DNA of 64,000 nucleotides, from the IMG/VR virus record IMGVR_UViG_3300037140_000076, positions 48,375-112,374 of that record; one strand, given 5' to 3'. The notes below the pieces were generated by a model, which saw only the letters and a list, made by a program, of their open reading frames with translations, was not told where the DNA came from and made no database searches. The translations under genes were made by a program, and so were the position numbers. The stretch comes from a virus. This document shows positions 11,949-26,985 of this stretch, in pieces (the stretch's first letter is position 1; each line of letters opens with the position of its first letter).

Positions 11949-11973
11949 AATACTTATTTCTAAGGTTTGTCAG

Positions 11974-12331
11974 TGGACTAGTCGGAATTCGAATCCGAGT
12001 CTTCAATACAAAAAATCTTACTTTTCTTTATAGGTTTAGGATAACGATTTAATCTTACTACCGTTCCAAAAGAATTTTCCTACCCTCCACCACTCGGTTT
12101 AGGTCCGAGAACCATGCTACACCAGCCATTTTCTGTTTCAAGGTATGACTACCCATGCATCAAGCTAATTCCAGTTCTTCACTGAAAACCGAAGCGAGTA
12201 TCGCTTCTCCTTCTGCAATACGTTCAGCTTTAGACTTTACGTTTGTTTGTTGCATATTTATTAAGGATGTTATATACTGCATCCACCTAAAATAAAACCT
12301 TTCAATACTGAATCAATAGCCTTTCTAGCCC
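11974..12331 (-). ncRNA. ssrA: tmRNA
   Basis: 5' GGGCUAG pairs with 3' CUAGUCC-A, including the G3:U70 Ala identity pair; T-arm UUCGAAU near the 3' end; 358 nt; internal ORF 12255-12160 MQQTNVKSKAERIAEGEAILASVFSEELELA*. Confidence 0.9.
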
Positions 12332-12756: not shown

Positions 12757-12806
12757 TGCCATAAACACGTTATTCGGAACACAAAGATAAGTAACTTTTT
12801 TGAAAC

Positions 12807-13346
12807 TTACAAATATTTAAATTTATATCCAAATGCGTGTTTTTCAAGACCATTTAAAACATGCCAAATAGTTGATTGTCTTATTTTTAATTGTCTTGAA
12901 GCTTCCCTTTGAGAAATAAATTTTATTTTTTTGTTTTTAGGAGATATAACTAAAATCTTAGTTGGTTTATTTCCCATGACTTTTTTCAATATATCCCTTG
13001 CATGTTGTATATTTTGTTGCCTTGTACACCATTCAAGCTGAGAGGCCCGGTTATCAAGTTTATTTCCTTTCTTATGATTTATATCAAATCCTTTTTTATA
13101 TCCTTTTACAAAATGTTTTCCAACTAATATATGAACCTGGATTTTAGTAGATTTTCCATTTTTGGTTAAATCTAATTGTAAGTATCCTTTAGCATTTGGA
13201 GAAAGAATTCTATTTCTTCCCTTAAATTTTTGTAAAATTCCATGTTTGGTTTTTATTATTCTATCAAGAGATTTAATATTACCATAATTACTTATTTGAT
13301 AATAACCTTTGTATCCTTTTATATCTTTCCATTCTTTTTTCCTCAT
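12807..13346 (-). CDS. NUMOD4-HNH homing endonuclease
   Basis: EWKDIKGYKGYYQISNYG; INHKKGNKLDNRASQLEW. Confidence 0.9.
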   Translation of the reverse strand: MRKKEWKDIKGYKGYYQISNYGNIKSLDRIIKTKHGILQKFKGRNRILSPNAKGYLQLDLTKNGKSTKIQVHILVGKHFVKGYKKGFDINHKKGNKLDNRASQLEWCTRQQNIQHARDILKKVMGNKPTKILVISPKNKKIKFISQREASRQLKIRQSTIWHVLNGLEKHAFGYKFKYL

Positions 13347-19846: not shown

Positions 19847-21477
19847 TATTGCCTCTTATTGTAAAAATAAACTCTTCATCTTCATTAAGAGAATCTGTAA
19901 TTCCTTCCCAGTCTATATTTTCCTCAATGTCCCCTATAAAAGCAGTATAATAGTTTTCTGCTGCAATTTTTTTGTACTTGTCAACAAGTTCACTGAACTT
20001 GTATAATTTAATTCTTACGGTTTTCATTTTATTTTTACGCCTGTTATAGTCTGCGCCTGACTTTTATTTAAAAATTGGTTGTATGGTTATTAATCTAACT
20101 TGAAAGTAATACTTGCCTCAATATCATGGCCTGAAGGAAGTTTGTGATATTCTTTGTGTAATGACATAAAAGTTTGTTTATAGTTAATTGATTGCATTTG
20201 CGTTCAGTCAGTAATTGATTTTTAAACCTTTGTTTTTTCATTGAAGATTTGTTTTGCCCATTGGTTGAAGTCTCCATAATCGTCTGGTACTTCAATATGG
20301 TGGATTGTTTTGTTTGGCTTAATACCCTTTGGTTGCAGATAGGGATCATAACCAAACAATCTAATTAGGATTAACCGAATAGTTTTCTTTACCATAAAAT
20401 TATTTTAGGGGATTAAATGTAGTTGAAATAAATATCCATTCTGTTTTCCCTTCGCCCTTGCCTATAATTTCAAAGCCTTTTTTCTGCAACCACATCTTTG
20501 CATTTTCCCATACGGAATAATCCCAATCATGATTTATAGTTATAGATTCACGAAATCGGAATGAAGATATTTTAATCCTTTCCCCACGCGAATTAGATTC
20601 AGGAATATATTTTGCTGTGATAAGATGGAAATTAGGAAGGGAGAGGGCCTTCATATCTTTTAAATTCATGATTTTTTATTTAATTGAATGATGTGAAATA
20701 TAATGAAGGCAATGATGTTTACCATATTGAGGTAAAGGAAAGAAAAAAGTGCAAGTGAAGTAAGCTATTAAGAAACCCATTACAGCCCCTATCAATATAA
20801 CAGAGACATCTAGTAATATTCTTTTAATCATTTCAATTTTGTTTTAAGTGAATCTAATTCCAGCCTTGTAAGATAATCTAATCCTACTGTATCTTTGTCT
20901 TGAACAAAAATAACAGAGGTATACCCTCTATTATCTGTGATTTGTTTTATTATCTTGTTTGGGTTAATGTTTGTTTTTATACCAGTTAAGATCAACATTA
21001 GTGAAATAATTGGTGTAAGCAAAGCAAAAAGTAAGATTGATTCGTCTCTGTAAGTTTGTTTCATGGGATTGATTTTAATTATCCGTAAATTATTTCATTC
21101 ATAACTGCTAATTGAAACCATGCATCCGCTGTGCTTGCATCATAATTTTGCTGTAATATTTCTGCAAGATCATAGGCATATTTTTCACTCATTGTTTGTT
21201 CTCCCTGTTCTATAGAATTCATAGATAATTTACCAATTTCTTCGCTTGTTTCAATATCGTGAACGGGAATTTCAAGTCCTGCTTTTAATGCACTCCAAAG
21301 TTTCCAAACAAAAGTACCATCAAAACAAGATTCCTTTGTTGTAGGTAATTCGGGAACACTGTTAATTAAATTACCTGCATGTTCTTCGAACATATACCAA
21401 TAATTTGAACCTCCTTCAATGGCTGAAGTTAATAGATTAGTACGTTGTTCGTCTGTTAGATTGATTGTGATAGGCAT
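19833..21477 (-). CDS. cluster of small hypothetical early genes (19833-20027, 20400-20669, 20828-21064, 21079-21477)
   Basis: ORF track. Confidence 0.5.
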
Positions 21478-21499
21478 AAGATATAATTTAGATAATTGA

Positions 21500-21537
21500 A
21501 TAAAAAGAAAAGGGAGAATGTAGAAACATTCCCCCTG
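21500..21537 (-). terminator. intrinsic terminator closing the large ncRNA
   Basis: Minus strand reads AGGGGAAUG-UUUCUA-CAUUCUCCCU followed by UUUCUUUUU. Confidence 0.65.
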
Positions 21538-22310
21538 CTAAGAAACCCATTGAAAACTAAAAGAATGACCGTCCGTAATAAGATAAAGCAAAGGTACTTG
21601 TTATTGGTTATAGTGTTGAAACATTAGGCGAAGGCTTATAGCTTCAGCGTCCTTGCGATTTGTTAAACTAGTTAACTCTGTGTCCTTAAAGGTAAGGTTA
21701 CCTTTGCTTTAAAGGTCTGGAAGGTAGCAATTGAGCTACTACACTTGTTAAGGTGTAAGATTCTGAATTACTCCCAGACACACTATTCCCGAAGGAATAG
21801 ATTTAAAGATCTTTAATTTTTCACGCCCTTTTAAACTTCGGAATAACATAGTATTCTTACTAGGTCAGCGATTAGTTAACGCTTACTACTTTCCTGCAAC
21901 CTGTAAAAACTCTATGTCGTTTTCACTATCTAATTGCCCGGATTTTATTCACGTTCAAACATTAACCCGAATGCATCCTATGCATTCATAAGGGTGAAAG
22001 GGAAATAAAATCTTTGGTTCGTCCCTTCCTTCGCTCCATTGCCGATTGTCGCACCTATTCGGGCATCCAATTTTCAGGCAATTCAATACAGGTACCGACC
22101 TGCTAACGTGTGGTTACTATCAGATTCACCACGCTAATCCGTTCCGTTCGTTCTAAAAATACGGTTCTCAGGCCGTTAACTACTTCACCATATACTCAAT
22201 TACTGACTTAACAAGGTCAGATGAGAACATGGCCGGAATAATGATAAGAATTTAGCGAACACACGATTCCCAGGATGGGAAGTGGGCATCAATACCCTCA
22301 ACTCATTCGC
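21500..22310 (-). ncRNA. large (~800 nt) structured ncRNA candidate
   Basis: No ORF >=60 aa; nested long-range helices; cUUCGg tetraloop; G:U pairs only on the minus strand; promoter-like element upstream and terminator downstream. Confidence 0.65.
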
Positions 22311-23024
22311 ATATACAATATTACAACTATGCGCTGAAACGTACAAGAGTAAATATACTCATTCTTTAATAATAGCCAATATATAGTTATCCACAATATT
22401 TGGAAGTCTCAATATTATTTCGTATGCGCTAAAACGTACTATGCGAATATCTTTGTATATGTGACAGGATATTTGATTGATCCTATTAGCCCCCTTTGGG
22501 GGTTGGGGGCTGTAGACAACCAGAAGGAATAAATAATGAATTCCCCCTCCCCGCTTCAATCCATTACCGACAACCTGTCATAATCTTATGCGCTAAAACG
22601 TATATGCGCTATAACGTACATGGATTGGAATTAGTCCTGTTGTGGGGTTTTGGGCCTTTTAATAGACAATATTCTCTAAAAGGGACCGCATTCCCAGGAC
22701 GGTCCTATCCTCCCAAAACAAACCACCACCCCCATCCCCAGACTCATTCCGGTATGTACACTTTAACGCATATACATTATAAATCATATTGGTTATGTCA
22801 ACTACTATGTATTACCATGTATGTTTTAGCGCATATTCCCAATCCCCCACTTATTTTTAAAATTGGACAGAATCTAGGATTGGGAATTGAAAACAGAATT
22901 GGGAACGATGCCGGGGGTGGGAGGGCAGTCCCAAAGTTGGACGGCACCCAAGTTGATGGTGCGTGTATTGGAGGGTATATATAATATATTTTGAAATGTA
23001 AATTTAACCTATTATCTTTATATT

Positions 23025-23426
23025 ATGGATCAACAATGGAAAGACATACCAGGATATGAAGAATTGTATCAGGTGAGCGATATGGGTCATATTAGGGGCC
23101 TCAAACCCTCTCCCCGCTTAAAGGGTACCTATCTCATACCTGTCTTACATAATGGAAAGTATCATCGTGTACGCTTTTTCAAGGAAGGTAAGAGAAAATC
23201 ATTTTTTATACATATACTTGTTGGTAAAGCGTTCGTTCCCAACCCCTTAAACCTTACAGAGATTAATCATAAGAAGGGTAATAAACTTGATAATAGGGCT
23301 TCAGAACTTGAATGGACTACAAGGCAAAATAATATTCTTCACTCTTATAGAGTGCTCGGTACTAAATCAAAAGGGAGAAGTTACCCATGTTGTAGATTAA
23401 AACCAGGTTATTTTTCAGTTATATAA
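23025..23426 (+). CDS. NUMOD4-HNH homing endonuclease
   Basis: WKDIPGYEELYQVSDMG; INHKKGNKLDNRASELEW. Confidence 0.88.
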   Translation: MDQQWKDIPGYEELYQVSDMGHIRGLKPSPRLKGTYLIPVLHNGKYHRVRFFKEGKRKSFFIHILVGKAFVPNPLNLTEINHKKGNKLDNRASELEWTTRQNNILHSYRVLGTKSKGRSYPCCRLKPGYFSVI

Positions 23427-23430
23427 TTTT

Positions 23431-23457
23431 CCCGCTTCTAATCTAAGCGGGTTTTTT
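23431..23457 (+). terminator. intrinsic terminator
   Basis: CCCGCTT/AAGCGGG plus T-run. Confidence 0.7.
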
Positions 23458-23793
23458 GGGTCCTGTTTAAAAACTTTAACATTCCTTTGGGAATTTAATT
23501 GATTTAAAAACCGTATCTTTGCCACCGGCCTTCCGTACTAAGGCCCTAACAGGCCGCACAAGGACGGTAAGATGGGGGATACTATATAAAAGACCCCCCC
23601 CCTCCTCTTCTCTCTAACAATAATGTACGCTTTAGCGCATATGCGTTAAAACGTACATAGACAATGTGTCCAACATAATGTCCGAGTTATGCTTTGTAGC
23701 TGGATAAGGACTTTAAAGACAACCGGGAGGGGGAAAATTAAATTTGGATATTAAAAAAACTCTTGTTACCTTTATTCCTAAAATCATAACAGT

Positions 23794-26913: not shown

Positions 26914-26985
26914 AGACAATTAGCTCATCGGGAGAGCGGAGCCTTTACACGGCTTGCGTAGAGGGTTCAATTCCTTCATTGTCTA
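26914..26985 (+). tRNA. tRNA-Val(TAC)
   Basis: Cloverleaf; GAGCC-TT-TAC-AC-GGCTT. Confidence 0.88.

What the first reader, a model, noticed from the sequence alone, without database searches (positions are those of the whole stretch)
21500..22310. ~800-nt highly structured ncRNA at the head of the leftward arm
ORF-free stretch with nested helices: 21862-69/22094-101, 21899-905/22087-93, 21932-40/22075-83, 21941-50/22003-12, a perfect 12-bp 21585-96/21699-710, 21715-20/21774-79, and many local hairpins. G:U pairs and a cUUCGg loop (21783-21800) indicate the minus strand. It is bounded by a promoter-like element (~22315-22347) and a terminator (21500-21537). The size resembles GOLLD/ROOL-type large phage RNAs, but I cannot assign it to a family.
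Basis: partly seen in the sequence, partly recalled or inferred. Interest (0 to 1): 0.75.

Follow-up and report, generated by a model that had tools for sequence, protein, structure and literature searches.

The report
Modular structured RNA in peat crAss-like phage
The gene-free stretch in front of the leftward (replication) genes of this uncultured peat crAss-like phage most likely encodes a roughly 800-base folded non-coding RNA of an undescribed family, built as a chain of hairpin modules, three of which differ sharply between two otherwise near-identical phage strains yet keep their base pairs; its transcription and function are untested.

Summary
The stretch is truly non-coding. No ORF appears under standard or recoded genetic codes, and the neighbouring 162-aa ORF is also spurious, so window 21478-23024 has no gene. 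A strong minus-strand intrinsic terminator (21536-21511 plus a U-run) ends 24 nt before the first leftward gene.

No Rfam family matches (GOLLD, ROOL, OLE, introns, 6S). Only one relative holds the element. Its flanks are 97-98% identical, but three RNA segments are only 61-76% identical.

In those segments eight local hairpins keep pairing:
- 15 doubly compensated pairs, against 0-1 in slid controls and a mean of 4.3 (maximum 9) in 180 column shuffles
- 10 one-sided changes, all G·U-compatible on the minus strand
- no broken pair

This supports a minus-strand structured RNA.

Transcription is untested, because no RNA run was listed. Function is unknown. My best guess is a stable early RNA like the abundant early lncRNAs of crAss-like phage phi14:2.

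This scan has noted analogous large RNAs in other crAss-like phages on other DNA, none sharing sequence with this one. The case rests on two sequences.

The parts
22316..22347 (-). Candidate promoter P1: cTTG (22347-22344), a 20-nt spacer holding one copy of the 17-bp repeat GTACGTTTCAGCGCATA (22344-22328), then the -7-like box TAATATTG (22323-22316). The inferred start is near 22310.
   Evidence: The spacing equals that of this phage's exact TTTG-N20-TAnnTTTG promoters. It is identical in L004. The match is weak and unverified.
22410..22439 (-). Second copy of the same repeat (22439-22423) followed by TAATATTG (22417-22410). This is an alternative upstream start that would add about 95 nt, including the single perfect DnaA box (22387-22395).
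22185..22300 (-). Module D1: hairpins H02 (22297-22284) and H03 (22281-22267) and the long hairpin H06/H07 (22233-22187).
   Evidence: H06 has pair probability 0.95-0.97. The module is 97% identical in L004, so there is no covariation to test.
22036..22178 (-). Module D2, a hypervariable cassette (64% identity to L004). It holds hairpins H08 (22176-22161), H09 (22132-22110) and H10 (22103-22088) and the compound hairpin H11/H12 (22082-22038) with a conserved GAAUA loop. Conserved islands lie between the stems.
   Evidence: 11 of the 15 doubly compensated pairs lie here. H11/H12 is predicted identically from each sequence folded alone. Of 50 substituted columns, 25 lie in pairs and all stay paired.
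21790..22033 (-). Module D3, the conserved core (98% identity). It is a multibranch domain closed by nested long-range helices H13, H14 and H15, enclosing hairpins H16, H19/H20 and H21/H22.
   Evidence: z is -3.53 on the minus strand but -5.16 on the plus strand, so the strand is not decided here. H14 has probability 0.71-0.84 and H16 0.8. There is no variation, so the fold is untested.
21783..21800 (-). 7-bp hairpin with a C(UUCG)G tetraloop. It is an alternative to the 3' strands of H13 and H05.
   Evidence: Pair probability is 0.25 in the window and 0.49 in L004. It is invariant.
21715..21779 (-). Module D4: an invariant 9-bp stem H23 (21779-21771/21723-21715) closing a variable insert with hairpins H24 and H25.
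   Evidence: z is -3.87 and -2.82 in the two haplotypes. H23 has probability 0.95-0.99. There are 2 doubly compensated and 3 one-sided G·U changes.
21584..21711 (-). Module D5: an invariant 13-bp stem H26 (21711-21699/21596-21584) closing a hypervariable insert (102 nt here, 84 nt in L004) that begins with hairpin H27.
   Evidence: (I13). z is -3.36 and -3.73. H27 has 2 doubly compensated pairs.
21498..21582 (-). Module D6 (weak hairpin H29, 21582-21546) and the intrinsic terminator (stem 21536-21511, U-run to about 21498).
   Evidence: z -3.1 and -3.2. It is conserved in L004 with one G·U change and a 6-nt insertion in front.
21079..21477 (-). First gene of the leftward arm (132 aa, phrog_2355). 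Its ATG lies 24 nt after the terminator's U-run. It is not part of the RNA but defines its setting.
   Evidence: In L004 a different 76-aa ORF replaces it, with the breakpoint at the start codon.

Best explanation
Window about 22310 (or about 22403) down to about 21500, minus strand, is the gene of an undescribed structured non-coding RNA of about 800 nt.

Shown:
- It is non-coding.
- It ends in a strong intrinsic terminator 24 nt before the first leftward gene.
- It folds as a chain of stem-closed modules (D1-D6).
- In three modules the sequence has diverged to 61-76% identity between two phage strains that are otherwise 97-98% identical, while every consensus pair is kept.

Inferred:
- It is transcribed leftward from the repeat-bearing control region at the strand-switch point, among the first phage transcripts.
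- Most transcripts stop at the terminator hairpin, which also protects the 3' end, giving a discrete and stable RNA.
- A fraction of transcripts read through and feed the leftward replication genes, which have no room for a promoter of their own behind the terminator.
- The RNA acts in trans as a protein-binding scaffold or decoy. The conserved modules would carry the common function. The swappable hairpin cassettes would be exchanged by recombination at the conserved stems and would track a variable partner.

The biochemical function is unknown. This is the reading I think most likely, not a demonstrated one.
For: Non-coding: (small ORFs are not shared, except one of 31-33 aa inside an invariant block).

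Terminator.

No known family.

Selection on pairing:
- RNAalifold on the minus strand gives 213 pairs, with 15 changed on both sides and kept, 10 changed on one side and kept, and 0 broken.
- Slid-partner controls give 0-1 double changes.
- Column-shuffled alignments give a mean of 4.3 and a maximum of 9 double changes in 180 shuffles. Their consensus energy is -113 to -129 ± 7-8 against -199 observed.
- A structure predicted from L004 alone keeps 13 double changes in the window, against 6.8 ± 1.9 in the null (none of 2000 permutations reached 13).

Strand:
- Consensus energy is -199 on the minus strand and -156 on the plus strand. One-sided changes number 10 and 2.
- 50 of 426 paired cells are G·U and would be A·C on the plus strand.
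- The terminator works only on the minus strand.

Other support:
- Module stability is z -2.8 to -3.9 in both haplotypes.
- G+C is 0.37-0.43 here against 0.29-0.34 in the leftward genes.
- Precedent: in crAss-like phage phi14:2 two long intergenic regions are transcribed early, more strongly than most genes, and persist. Their function is unknown (bioRxiv 10.1101/2020.03.07.982082).
- The closest cultured relative, Lbo-JY46, has a 990-nt ORF-free stretch in the same place, with z -2.97.
Against: - There are only two sequences. The consensus structure was derived from them, which inflates apparent compensation.
- About 70% of the RNA is invariant between them, so the core fold and all long-range helices are untested.
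- The structure predicted from the window alone is poorly kept in L004: 41 of 62 changed pairs break.
- The whole-stretch z-score is modest and equal on both strands. The core scores better on the plus strand.
- D2 has no thermodynamic excess, with z about 0.
- The promoter is a weak match, and the transcript's existence, ends and abundance are untested.
- The trans-acting decoy or scaffold role and the read-through are inference with no direct support.
Confidence: 0.62

Rival explanations
1. The stretch is a cis-acting leader. The 800-nt RNA is the 5' untranslated leader of the leftward operon, and its terminator is a regulated attenuator. A phage or host factor, or the phage's own RNA polymerase, would override it to switch on the replication genes. 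This would resemble the lambda PL-nutL-tL1 arrangement or the HK022 put RNA, which makes RNA polymerase terminator-resistant.
For: - The terminator's U-run ends 24 nt before the ATG at 21477, leaving no room or match for a separate promoter.
- The terminator and the spacing are kept in L004 although the downstream gene is replaced.
- The RNA and the genes share an orientation.
Against: - Known attenuator and antitermination leaders are 70-300 nt, not 800 nt (established knowledge).
- No alternative antiterminator pairing with the terminator's 5' arm was seen. The terminator has pair probability 1.0 in the window sequence.
- No T-box, riboswitch or other leader family matches. The only weak L20-leader hit (E 0.2, 21.5 bits against a 58.7 gathering score) rests on the terminator itself.
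- Hypervariable cassettes are not expected in a sensor.
- This reading is compatible with the main explanation rather than exclusive of it.
Confidence: 0.2
2. The stretch belongs to the replication origin or control region. It would work as DNA, or as an origin transcript that primes or activates replication, as ColE1 RNA II or the T7 and lambda origin transcripts do. The hairpins would then be DNA or R-loop features.
For: - Directly to the right lie eight copies of a 17-bp repeat in divergent orientation (22328-23656, against 0.13 expected) and the window's only perfect DnaA box.
- The cumulative GC skew has its minimum at about 22.6-22.9 kb.
- Folding z-scores are equal on both strands, and the core is better on the plus strand.
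- The phage encodes a family-A DNA polymerase.
Against: - None of the repeats lies inside 21500-22310, except the copy in the promoter.
- The one-sided changes are G·U-compatible on one strand only, which DNA hairpins would not require.
- The discrete intrinsic terminator argues for a released RNA, not a primer.
- G+C is above the genome mean, not an AT-rich unwinding element.
- The GC-skew switch is confounded by the switch in gene orientation.
Confidence: 0.1
3. The stretch has no function of its own. It would be spacer or decayed sequence, and the apparent compensation would come from fitting a structure to two mosaic sequences whose variable patches arrived by recombination.
For: - There are two sequences only.
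- The conserved blocks are no more conserved than the flanking genes, at about 98%.
- The genome pair is mosaic elsewhere, at 73-98% identity.
- The structure from the window alone is poorly kept.
Against: - Shuffled alignments fitted in the same way reach at most 9 double changes, against 15 observed, and a much worse consensus energy.
- H11/H12 is predicted independently in both sequences at 64% identity.
- Invariant stems H23 and H26 exactly frame the variable inserts.
- Phage genomes rarely keep 0.8 kb of spacer. The same position is also gene-free in Lbo-JY46.
Confidence: 0.08

Closest known systems
Early long non-coding RNAs of Cellulophaga crAss-like phage phi14:2 (g004-g005 and g005-g006 junctions; Drobysheva et al., bioRxiv 10.1101/2020.03.07.982082)
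   Same: - Both are long gene-free stretches (about 1.7 kb in phi14:2, L134:2905-4601) among the early or replication-side genes of a crAss-like phage.
- Both lie in the sense orientation of those genes.
- The function is unknown in both.
   Different: - There is no sequence similarity (nhmmer and blastn).
- The phi14:2 RNAs are known from RNA-seq with no published structure. This one is known from structure conservation with no RNA data.
- In phi14:2 the RNAs lie inside the early region. Here the RNA lies at the strand-switch point, next to a repeat cluster.
ROOL (RF03087) and GOLLD (RF01998), large ornate RNAs often carried by phages and prophages
   Same: - Size class of 500-800 nt.
- Multi-domain fold.
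- Phage-borne, in a tRNA-rich phage genome.
- No known biochemical function.
   Different: - No match to either covariance model, even at E up to 10.
- It is not adjacent to tRNA genes: the nearest array is 4.6 kb away, on the other arm and the other strand.
- Evidence for a globally ornate fold is lacking here.
Lambda PL-nutL-tL1 and the HK022 put RNA (early leftward transcript that meets a terminator before the delayed-early genes)
   Same: - An early leftward transcript leaves a divergent control region.
- A strong terminator stands directly in front of the downstream genes.
   Different: - No N-like gene or put-like two-hairpin element was identified.
- The RNA is ten times longer than put.
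- Nothing here was tested functionally. The comparison comes from established knowledge.
ColE1 RNA II pre-primer
   Same: Both are a structured RNA of several hundred nt made next to a presumed origin, in a replicon that uses a family-A DNA polymerase.
   Different: - RNA II has no terminator at the origin and is cut by RNase H.
- This RNA runs away from the repeat cluster and ends in an intrinsic terminator.

Membership tests
GOLLD (Rfam RF01998) | Match to the family covariance model | tested here: not met
   There is no hit at the gathering score in the whole window. There is none at E up to 10 in 21300-22600 or at E up to 1 in the L004 copy.
ROOL (Rfam RF03087) | Match to the family covariance model | tested here: not met
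   Searches give no hit.
ROOL / GOLLD | Frequent position next to tRNA genes in phage or prophage DNA | tested here: not met
   The nearest tRNA genes are at 26914 (+ strand, other arm) and 12756 (- strand), 4.6 and 8.7 kb away.
OLE, group I and group II introns, 6S RNA, RNase P, tmRNA, riboswitch and leader families (Rfam 15) | Match to any of the 4227 covariance models | tested here: not met
   Only sub-threshold chance-level hits appear. The best is L20_leader at 21.5 bits against 58.7, resting on the terminator.
phi14:2-type early lncRNA of crAss-like phages | Long gene-free stretch on the early or replication side of a crAss-like phage, sense to the neighbouring genes | tested here: met
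   - The portal and DNA polymerase place the phage among crAss-like phages.
- The stretch is ORF-free.
- The orientation follows from the terminator.
phi14:2-type early lncRNA of crAss-like phages | Abundant transcript from the earliest time point that persists through infection | not testable with these tools
   There is no cultured host, and no RNA run was listed for this DNA.
phi14:2-type early lncRNA of crAss-like phages | Sequence or structure homology to the phi14:2 RNAs | tested here: not met
   nhmmer and blastn against L134 find nothing. The D2 covariance model R1 finds nothing in L134.
Intrinsically terminated bacterial-type RNA gene | G+C-rich hairpin followed by a U-run on the sense strand | tested here: met
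   The stem at 21536-21511 has 11 pairs (5 G-C), followed by UUUUCUUUUUA. It is conserved in L004.

The most novel reading that the evidence does not exclude
The RNA would be a cassette-bearing large RNA. A conserved scaffold carries hairpin modules that phage strains exchange by recombination at invariant closing stems (H23, H26 and the islands of D2). These modules would be specificity determinants in an arms race, for example decoys or baits for variable host RNA-binding defence or RNA-processing proteins. That would make large crAss-phage RNAs a diversifying counter-defence or host-takeover device rather than a housekeeping RNA.
Probability: 0.15. Interest if true: 0.8.

Novelty: new variant of a known kind. 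Interest (0 to 1): 0.5.

Why it matters
crAss-like phages are among the most abundant phages known. The one transcriptome of a cultured member shows very abundant early non-coding RNAs whose role is still unexplained. This candidate comes from an environmental (peat and permafrost) lineage and adds three things.

- It defines an RNA gene with clear borders and a module map that can be probed.
- It shows base-pair-preserving hypervariation between near-identical strains. This points to which parts interact with something variable.
- Its position links it to the control region or presumed origin and to the entry into the replication genes.

If large early RNAs at this position prove general in the order, they would be a conserved but unexplored layer of crAss-phage biology. 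On present evidence it is a well-supported candidate, not an established RNA.

Tried and rejected
1. Recoded ORFs (TAG=Q, TGA=W, TAA=Q): none found. The 162-aa ORF at 22496-22984 is rejected as a gene. Its substitutions against L004 fall 6/6/7 by codon position, its translation is junk-like, and it has no family. A protein search with it found only its own cluster.
2. Homologue hunting:
   - GenBank phages by blastn: no match.
   - IMG/VR by four neighbouring proteins: only one close contig (L004) plus distant loci without the RNA.
   - IMG/VR word scans with five patterns: only L004 and chance hits.
   - The single metagenome scan: my 18-specified-base pattern was too loose.
   - The genome contigs 21-mer: two chance hits inside ORFs of high-G+C MAGs.
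   - Covariance model R1 of D2: only the two known copies.
3. RNA evidence: no RNA holder was listed for this DNA. The runs laid were DNA contigs. They showed only the two haplotypes, X5 the window type and X9 the L004 type.
4. Pairing between the variable cassettes and the swapped downstream gene: no excess, with z between -1.1 and +2.1.
5. Similarity to the phi14:2 lncRNA region or to the Lbo-JY46 junction: none.
6. RNase P-like words (AAAUCCGGGC on one strand, AAGGGUGAAAGGG on the other) noticed by eye: rejected, because there is no Rfam RNase P hit and the words lie on opposite strands.
8. Two broad literature searches gave nothing specific.

Full report
**Setting**

The window is bases 48375-112374 of a 112-kb IMG/VR virus record.
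- The portal (phrog_6547) and a family-A DNA polymerase place the phage among crAss-like phages. The nearest GenBank relative is Leptolyngbya phage Lbo-JY46, with 45% portal identity. Next come csAssE-Sib and the Cellulophaga crAss-like phages.
- The DNA occurs in peat and permafrost metagenomes from about 13 studies.
- Genes left of 21477 run leftward (replication side). Genes right of 23025 run rightward (tRNA arrays, then structural genes).
- Exact Bacteroidetes-type promoters (TTTG, about 20 nt, TAnnTTTG) stand before the tRNA arrays, the portal gene and the tmRNA region.

**Is the stretch non-coding?**

Yes.
- No ORF above 43 aa exists in 21478-22495.
- Reading TAG, TGA or TAA as sense opens nothing convincing, and no suppressor tRNA is present.
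- The adjacent 162-aa ORF (22496-22984) is not a gene. It starts with TTG and its translation is low-complexity-like. It has no family, and its 19 substitutions against the relative fall 6/6/7 over the three codon positions.
- So window 21478-23024 (about 1.55 kb) is gene-free.
- Small ORFs inside the stretch differ between the two haplotypes. The exception is a 31-33-aa ORF that lies in an invariant block and is therefore uninformative.

**Borders**

- On the minus strand a terminator (11-bp stem, 5 G-C, 4-nt loop, then UUUUCUUUUUA) lies at 21536-21511. The first leftward gene starts at 21477, 24 nt after the U-run.
- Upstream, two copies of the 17-bp word GTACGTTTYAGCGCATA (22344-22328 and 22439-22423) are each followed after 4-5 nt by TAATATTG.
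- The first copy sits in a cTTG-20 nt-TAATATTG arrangement. This has the spacing of this phage's consensus promoters but misses two of ten specified positions.
- The promoter is therefore plausible and no more. The 5' end could be near 22310 or near 22403.

**Known families**

- None of the 4227 Rfam models reaches its threshold in the window, apart from tRNAs.
- With permissive filters the best hit in 21300-22600 is a 21.5-bit L20-leader match that rests on the terminator.
- The relative's copy gives nothing either.
- GOLLD, ROOL, OLE, introns, 6S and RNase P are thus excluded as families.

**Relatives**

- Only one other contig holds the element: IMGVR_UViG_3300050123_000043 (loci L004, L006-L008).
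- Its flanking genes are 97-98% identical to the window.
- The RNA stretch is a mosaic:
  - D1 97% identity
  - D3 core 98%
  - D2 64%
  - D4 76%
  - D5 61%, with an 18-nt length difference
  - 3' end 86%
- The conserved blocks are no better conserved than the genes. What stands out is the three hypervariable patches.
- Contigs of four further runs showed only these two haplotypes.
- Every other search failed to add a member. This covers GenBank phages, IMG/VR through neighbouring proteins and five DNA words, one metagenome scan, one genome scan, nhmmer and a covariance model of D2.

**Structure**

Whole-stretch and module stability:
- Whole-stretch folding gives z -2.16 on the minus strand and -2.14 on the plus strand. 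This is modest and strand-neutral.
- By module, D4, D5 and D6+terminator give z -2.8 to -3.9 in both haplotypes.
- The core D3 gives -3.5 on the minus strand but -5.2 on the plus strand.
- D2 gives about 0.

Comparison with L004:
- The minus-strand RNAalifold consensus has 213 pairs. Fifteen changed on both sides and stayed paired, ten changed on one side and stayed paired through G·U, and none is broken.
- The compensated pairs sit in eight local hairpins:
  - H08-H12 in D2
  - H24 and H25 in D4
  - H27 in D5
- The invariant stems H23 (9 bp) and H26 (13 bp) exactly frame the variable inserts.

Controls:
- Sliding the 3' partners by 1-3 columns leaves 0-1 double changes and about 40% of cells paired.
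- 180 column-shuffled alignments, refolded in the same way, give a mean of 4.3 and a maximum of 9 double changes. Their consensus energy is -113 to -129 against -199 observed.
- A structure predicted from L004 alone keeps 13 double changes in the window, against 6.8 ± 1.9 expected.
- The compound hairpin H11/H12 is predicted identically from either sequence folded alone at 64% identity.

Caveats:
- The consensus was derived from the same two sequences.
- The window-alone MFE structure is badly kept (41 of 62 changed pairs broken). This shows that single-sequence long-range predictions here are unreliable.
- Ensemble probabilities show competing folds for the core closure: H13 at 0.01 and 0.50, the UUCG hairpin at 0.25 and 0.49.

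- 21585-96/21699-710 (H26) and 21715-20/21774-79 (H23) stand.
- The UUCG hairpin exists as an alternative.
- Helices 21899-905/22087-93 and 21932-40/22075-83 each lose a pair in L004. The competing local hairpins H10 and H11 explain the same substitutions as compensated doubles.
- Helices 21862-69/22094-101, 21899-905/22087-93 and 21941-50/22003-12 have probability about 0, and 21932-40/22075-83 has 0.14.
- The supported architecture is a chain of stem-closed modules, not one nested 800-nt fold.

**Strand, and RNA versus DNA**

- Folding the plus strand of the same alignment gives -156 against -199 kcal/mol, 12 double changes and only 2 one-sided changes.
- All ten one-sided changes on the minus strand involve G·U. 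Fifty of 426 paired cells are G·U and would be A·C on the other strand or in DNA.
- The terminator works only on the minus strand, which is also the sense strand of the downstream genes.
- G+C is raised here (0.37-0.43 against 0.29-0.34 in the leftward genes), as is usual for structured RNAs in A+T-rich genomes. The repeat region to the right is also G+C-richer.
- I put the odds that this is a structured minus-strand RNA at roughly 0.7.

**Surroundings**

- To the right, eight copies of the 17-bp word (0.13 expected by chance) lie between 22328 and 23656. Leftward-pointing copies are on the left and rightward-pointing copies on the right, plus a head-to-head pair at 23625-23656.
- The window's only perfect DnaA box is at 22387-22395.
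- The cumulative GC skew turns at about 22.6-22.9 kb.
- This looks like the phage's control region and perhaps its origin. The RNA runs out of it.
- An HNH/NUMOD4 homing endonuclease gene (23025-23426) is present here and absent from L004.
- The first leftward gene is swapped between the haplotypes, with the breakpoint at its start codon.
- The variable cassettes show no excess complementarity to either version of that gene.

**Comparison with what is known**

- Drobysheva et al. (bioRxiv 10.1101/2020.03.07.982082, read) report on phi14:2. Two long intergenic regions are transcribed above most genes from the earliest time point and do not decline. [quoted passage not shown] Early transcripts made by the virion RNA polymerase share no upstream motif.
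- That region (L134:2905-4601) has no sequence similarity to this RNA.
- Lbo-JY46 keeps a 990-nt ORF-free stretch at the equivalent junction, directly upstream of the first gene of its replication arm. Its folding z is -2.97 and it ends in a long hairpin. It too has no sequence similarity.
- Earlier notes of this scan report comparable uncatalogued large RNAs in other crAss-like phages. None shares words with this stretch. I used them as leads only.

**How it most likely works**

Shown:
- a non-coding stretch
- a terminator
- modular hairpins under selection for pairing
- minus-strand polarity

Inferred:
- The stretch is transcribed leftward from the control region. It ends mostly at the terminator, giving a stable RNA, and some read-through feeds the replication genes.
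- The conserved modules carry a common function, most likely binding a protein as scaffold or decoy.
- The cassettes are exchanged by recombination at conserved stems and track something variable.

Rivals are a regulated leader or attenuator (0.2), an origin-linked element or transcript (0.1) and no function (0.08).

**Verdict**

This is a credible new family of large phage RNA, of a kind already known to exist in crAss-like phages. Its unusual feature is pairing-preserving hypervariable cassettes. The case rests on two sequences and no RNA data.

Noticed in passing
window 22328-23656: Eight copies of the 17-bp word GTACGTTTYAGCGCATA occur here (0.13 expected by chance). Leftward-pointing copies lie on the left and rightward-pointing copies on the right, with a head-to-head pair at 23625-23656. 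The window's only perfect DnaA box (22387-22395) and C-rich and G-rich runs lie among them. The region is a candidate master control region and/or origin.
   Followed up: partly
window 22496-22984 (+): The 162-aa ORF is almost certainly not a gene. It has a TTG start and no family. Its substitutions against L004 fall 6/6/7 by codon position, and four copies of the 17-bp repeat lie inside it. Gene callers do call it (cluster P0001).
   Followed up: yes
window 22975-23470: An HNH/NUMOD4 homing-endonuclease gene (23025-23426) is inserted here. It is absent from the otherwise 97% identical relative L004.
   Followed up: partly
window 21079-21477 (-) and L004:2759-2989 (-): The first gene behind the terminator is replaced between the two haplotypes (132 aa, phrog_2355, against an unrelated 76-aa ORF). 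The breakpoint lies exactly at the start codon.
   Followed up: partly
L136:8324-9313 (PP438436.1 124323-125312): Leptolyngbya phage Lbo-JY46, the closest cultured relative, has a 990-nt ORF-free stretch at the equivalent strand-switch point. Its folding z is -2.97 and it ends in a long hairpin just before the first gene of the other arm. It has no sequence similarity to this RNA.
   Followed up: partly
window 11973-12331 (-): ARAGORN calls a tmRNA gene here (tag peptide ending ...EELELA). The Rfam gathering-score scan of the window lists no tmRNA family at that place.
   Followed up: no
window 12782-12813 (-), 26546, 33797, 34577, 35182, 41895 (+): Exact Bacteroidetes-type promoters (TTTG, about 20 nt, TAnnTTTG) stand before the tmRNA region, the tRNA arrays and the portal gene. 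This suggests a Bacteroidota host and host-polymerase transcription of these units. The leftward replication arm lacks such sites near its head.
   Followed up: no
window 21751-21849 (-): A 33-aa ATG ORF (31 aa in L004) lies inside the invariant core of the RNA. It cannot be judged from two near-identical copies.
   Followed up: partly
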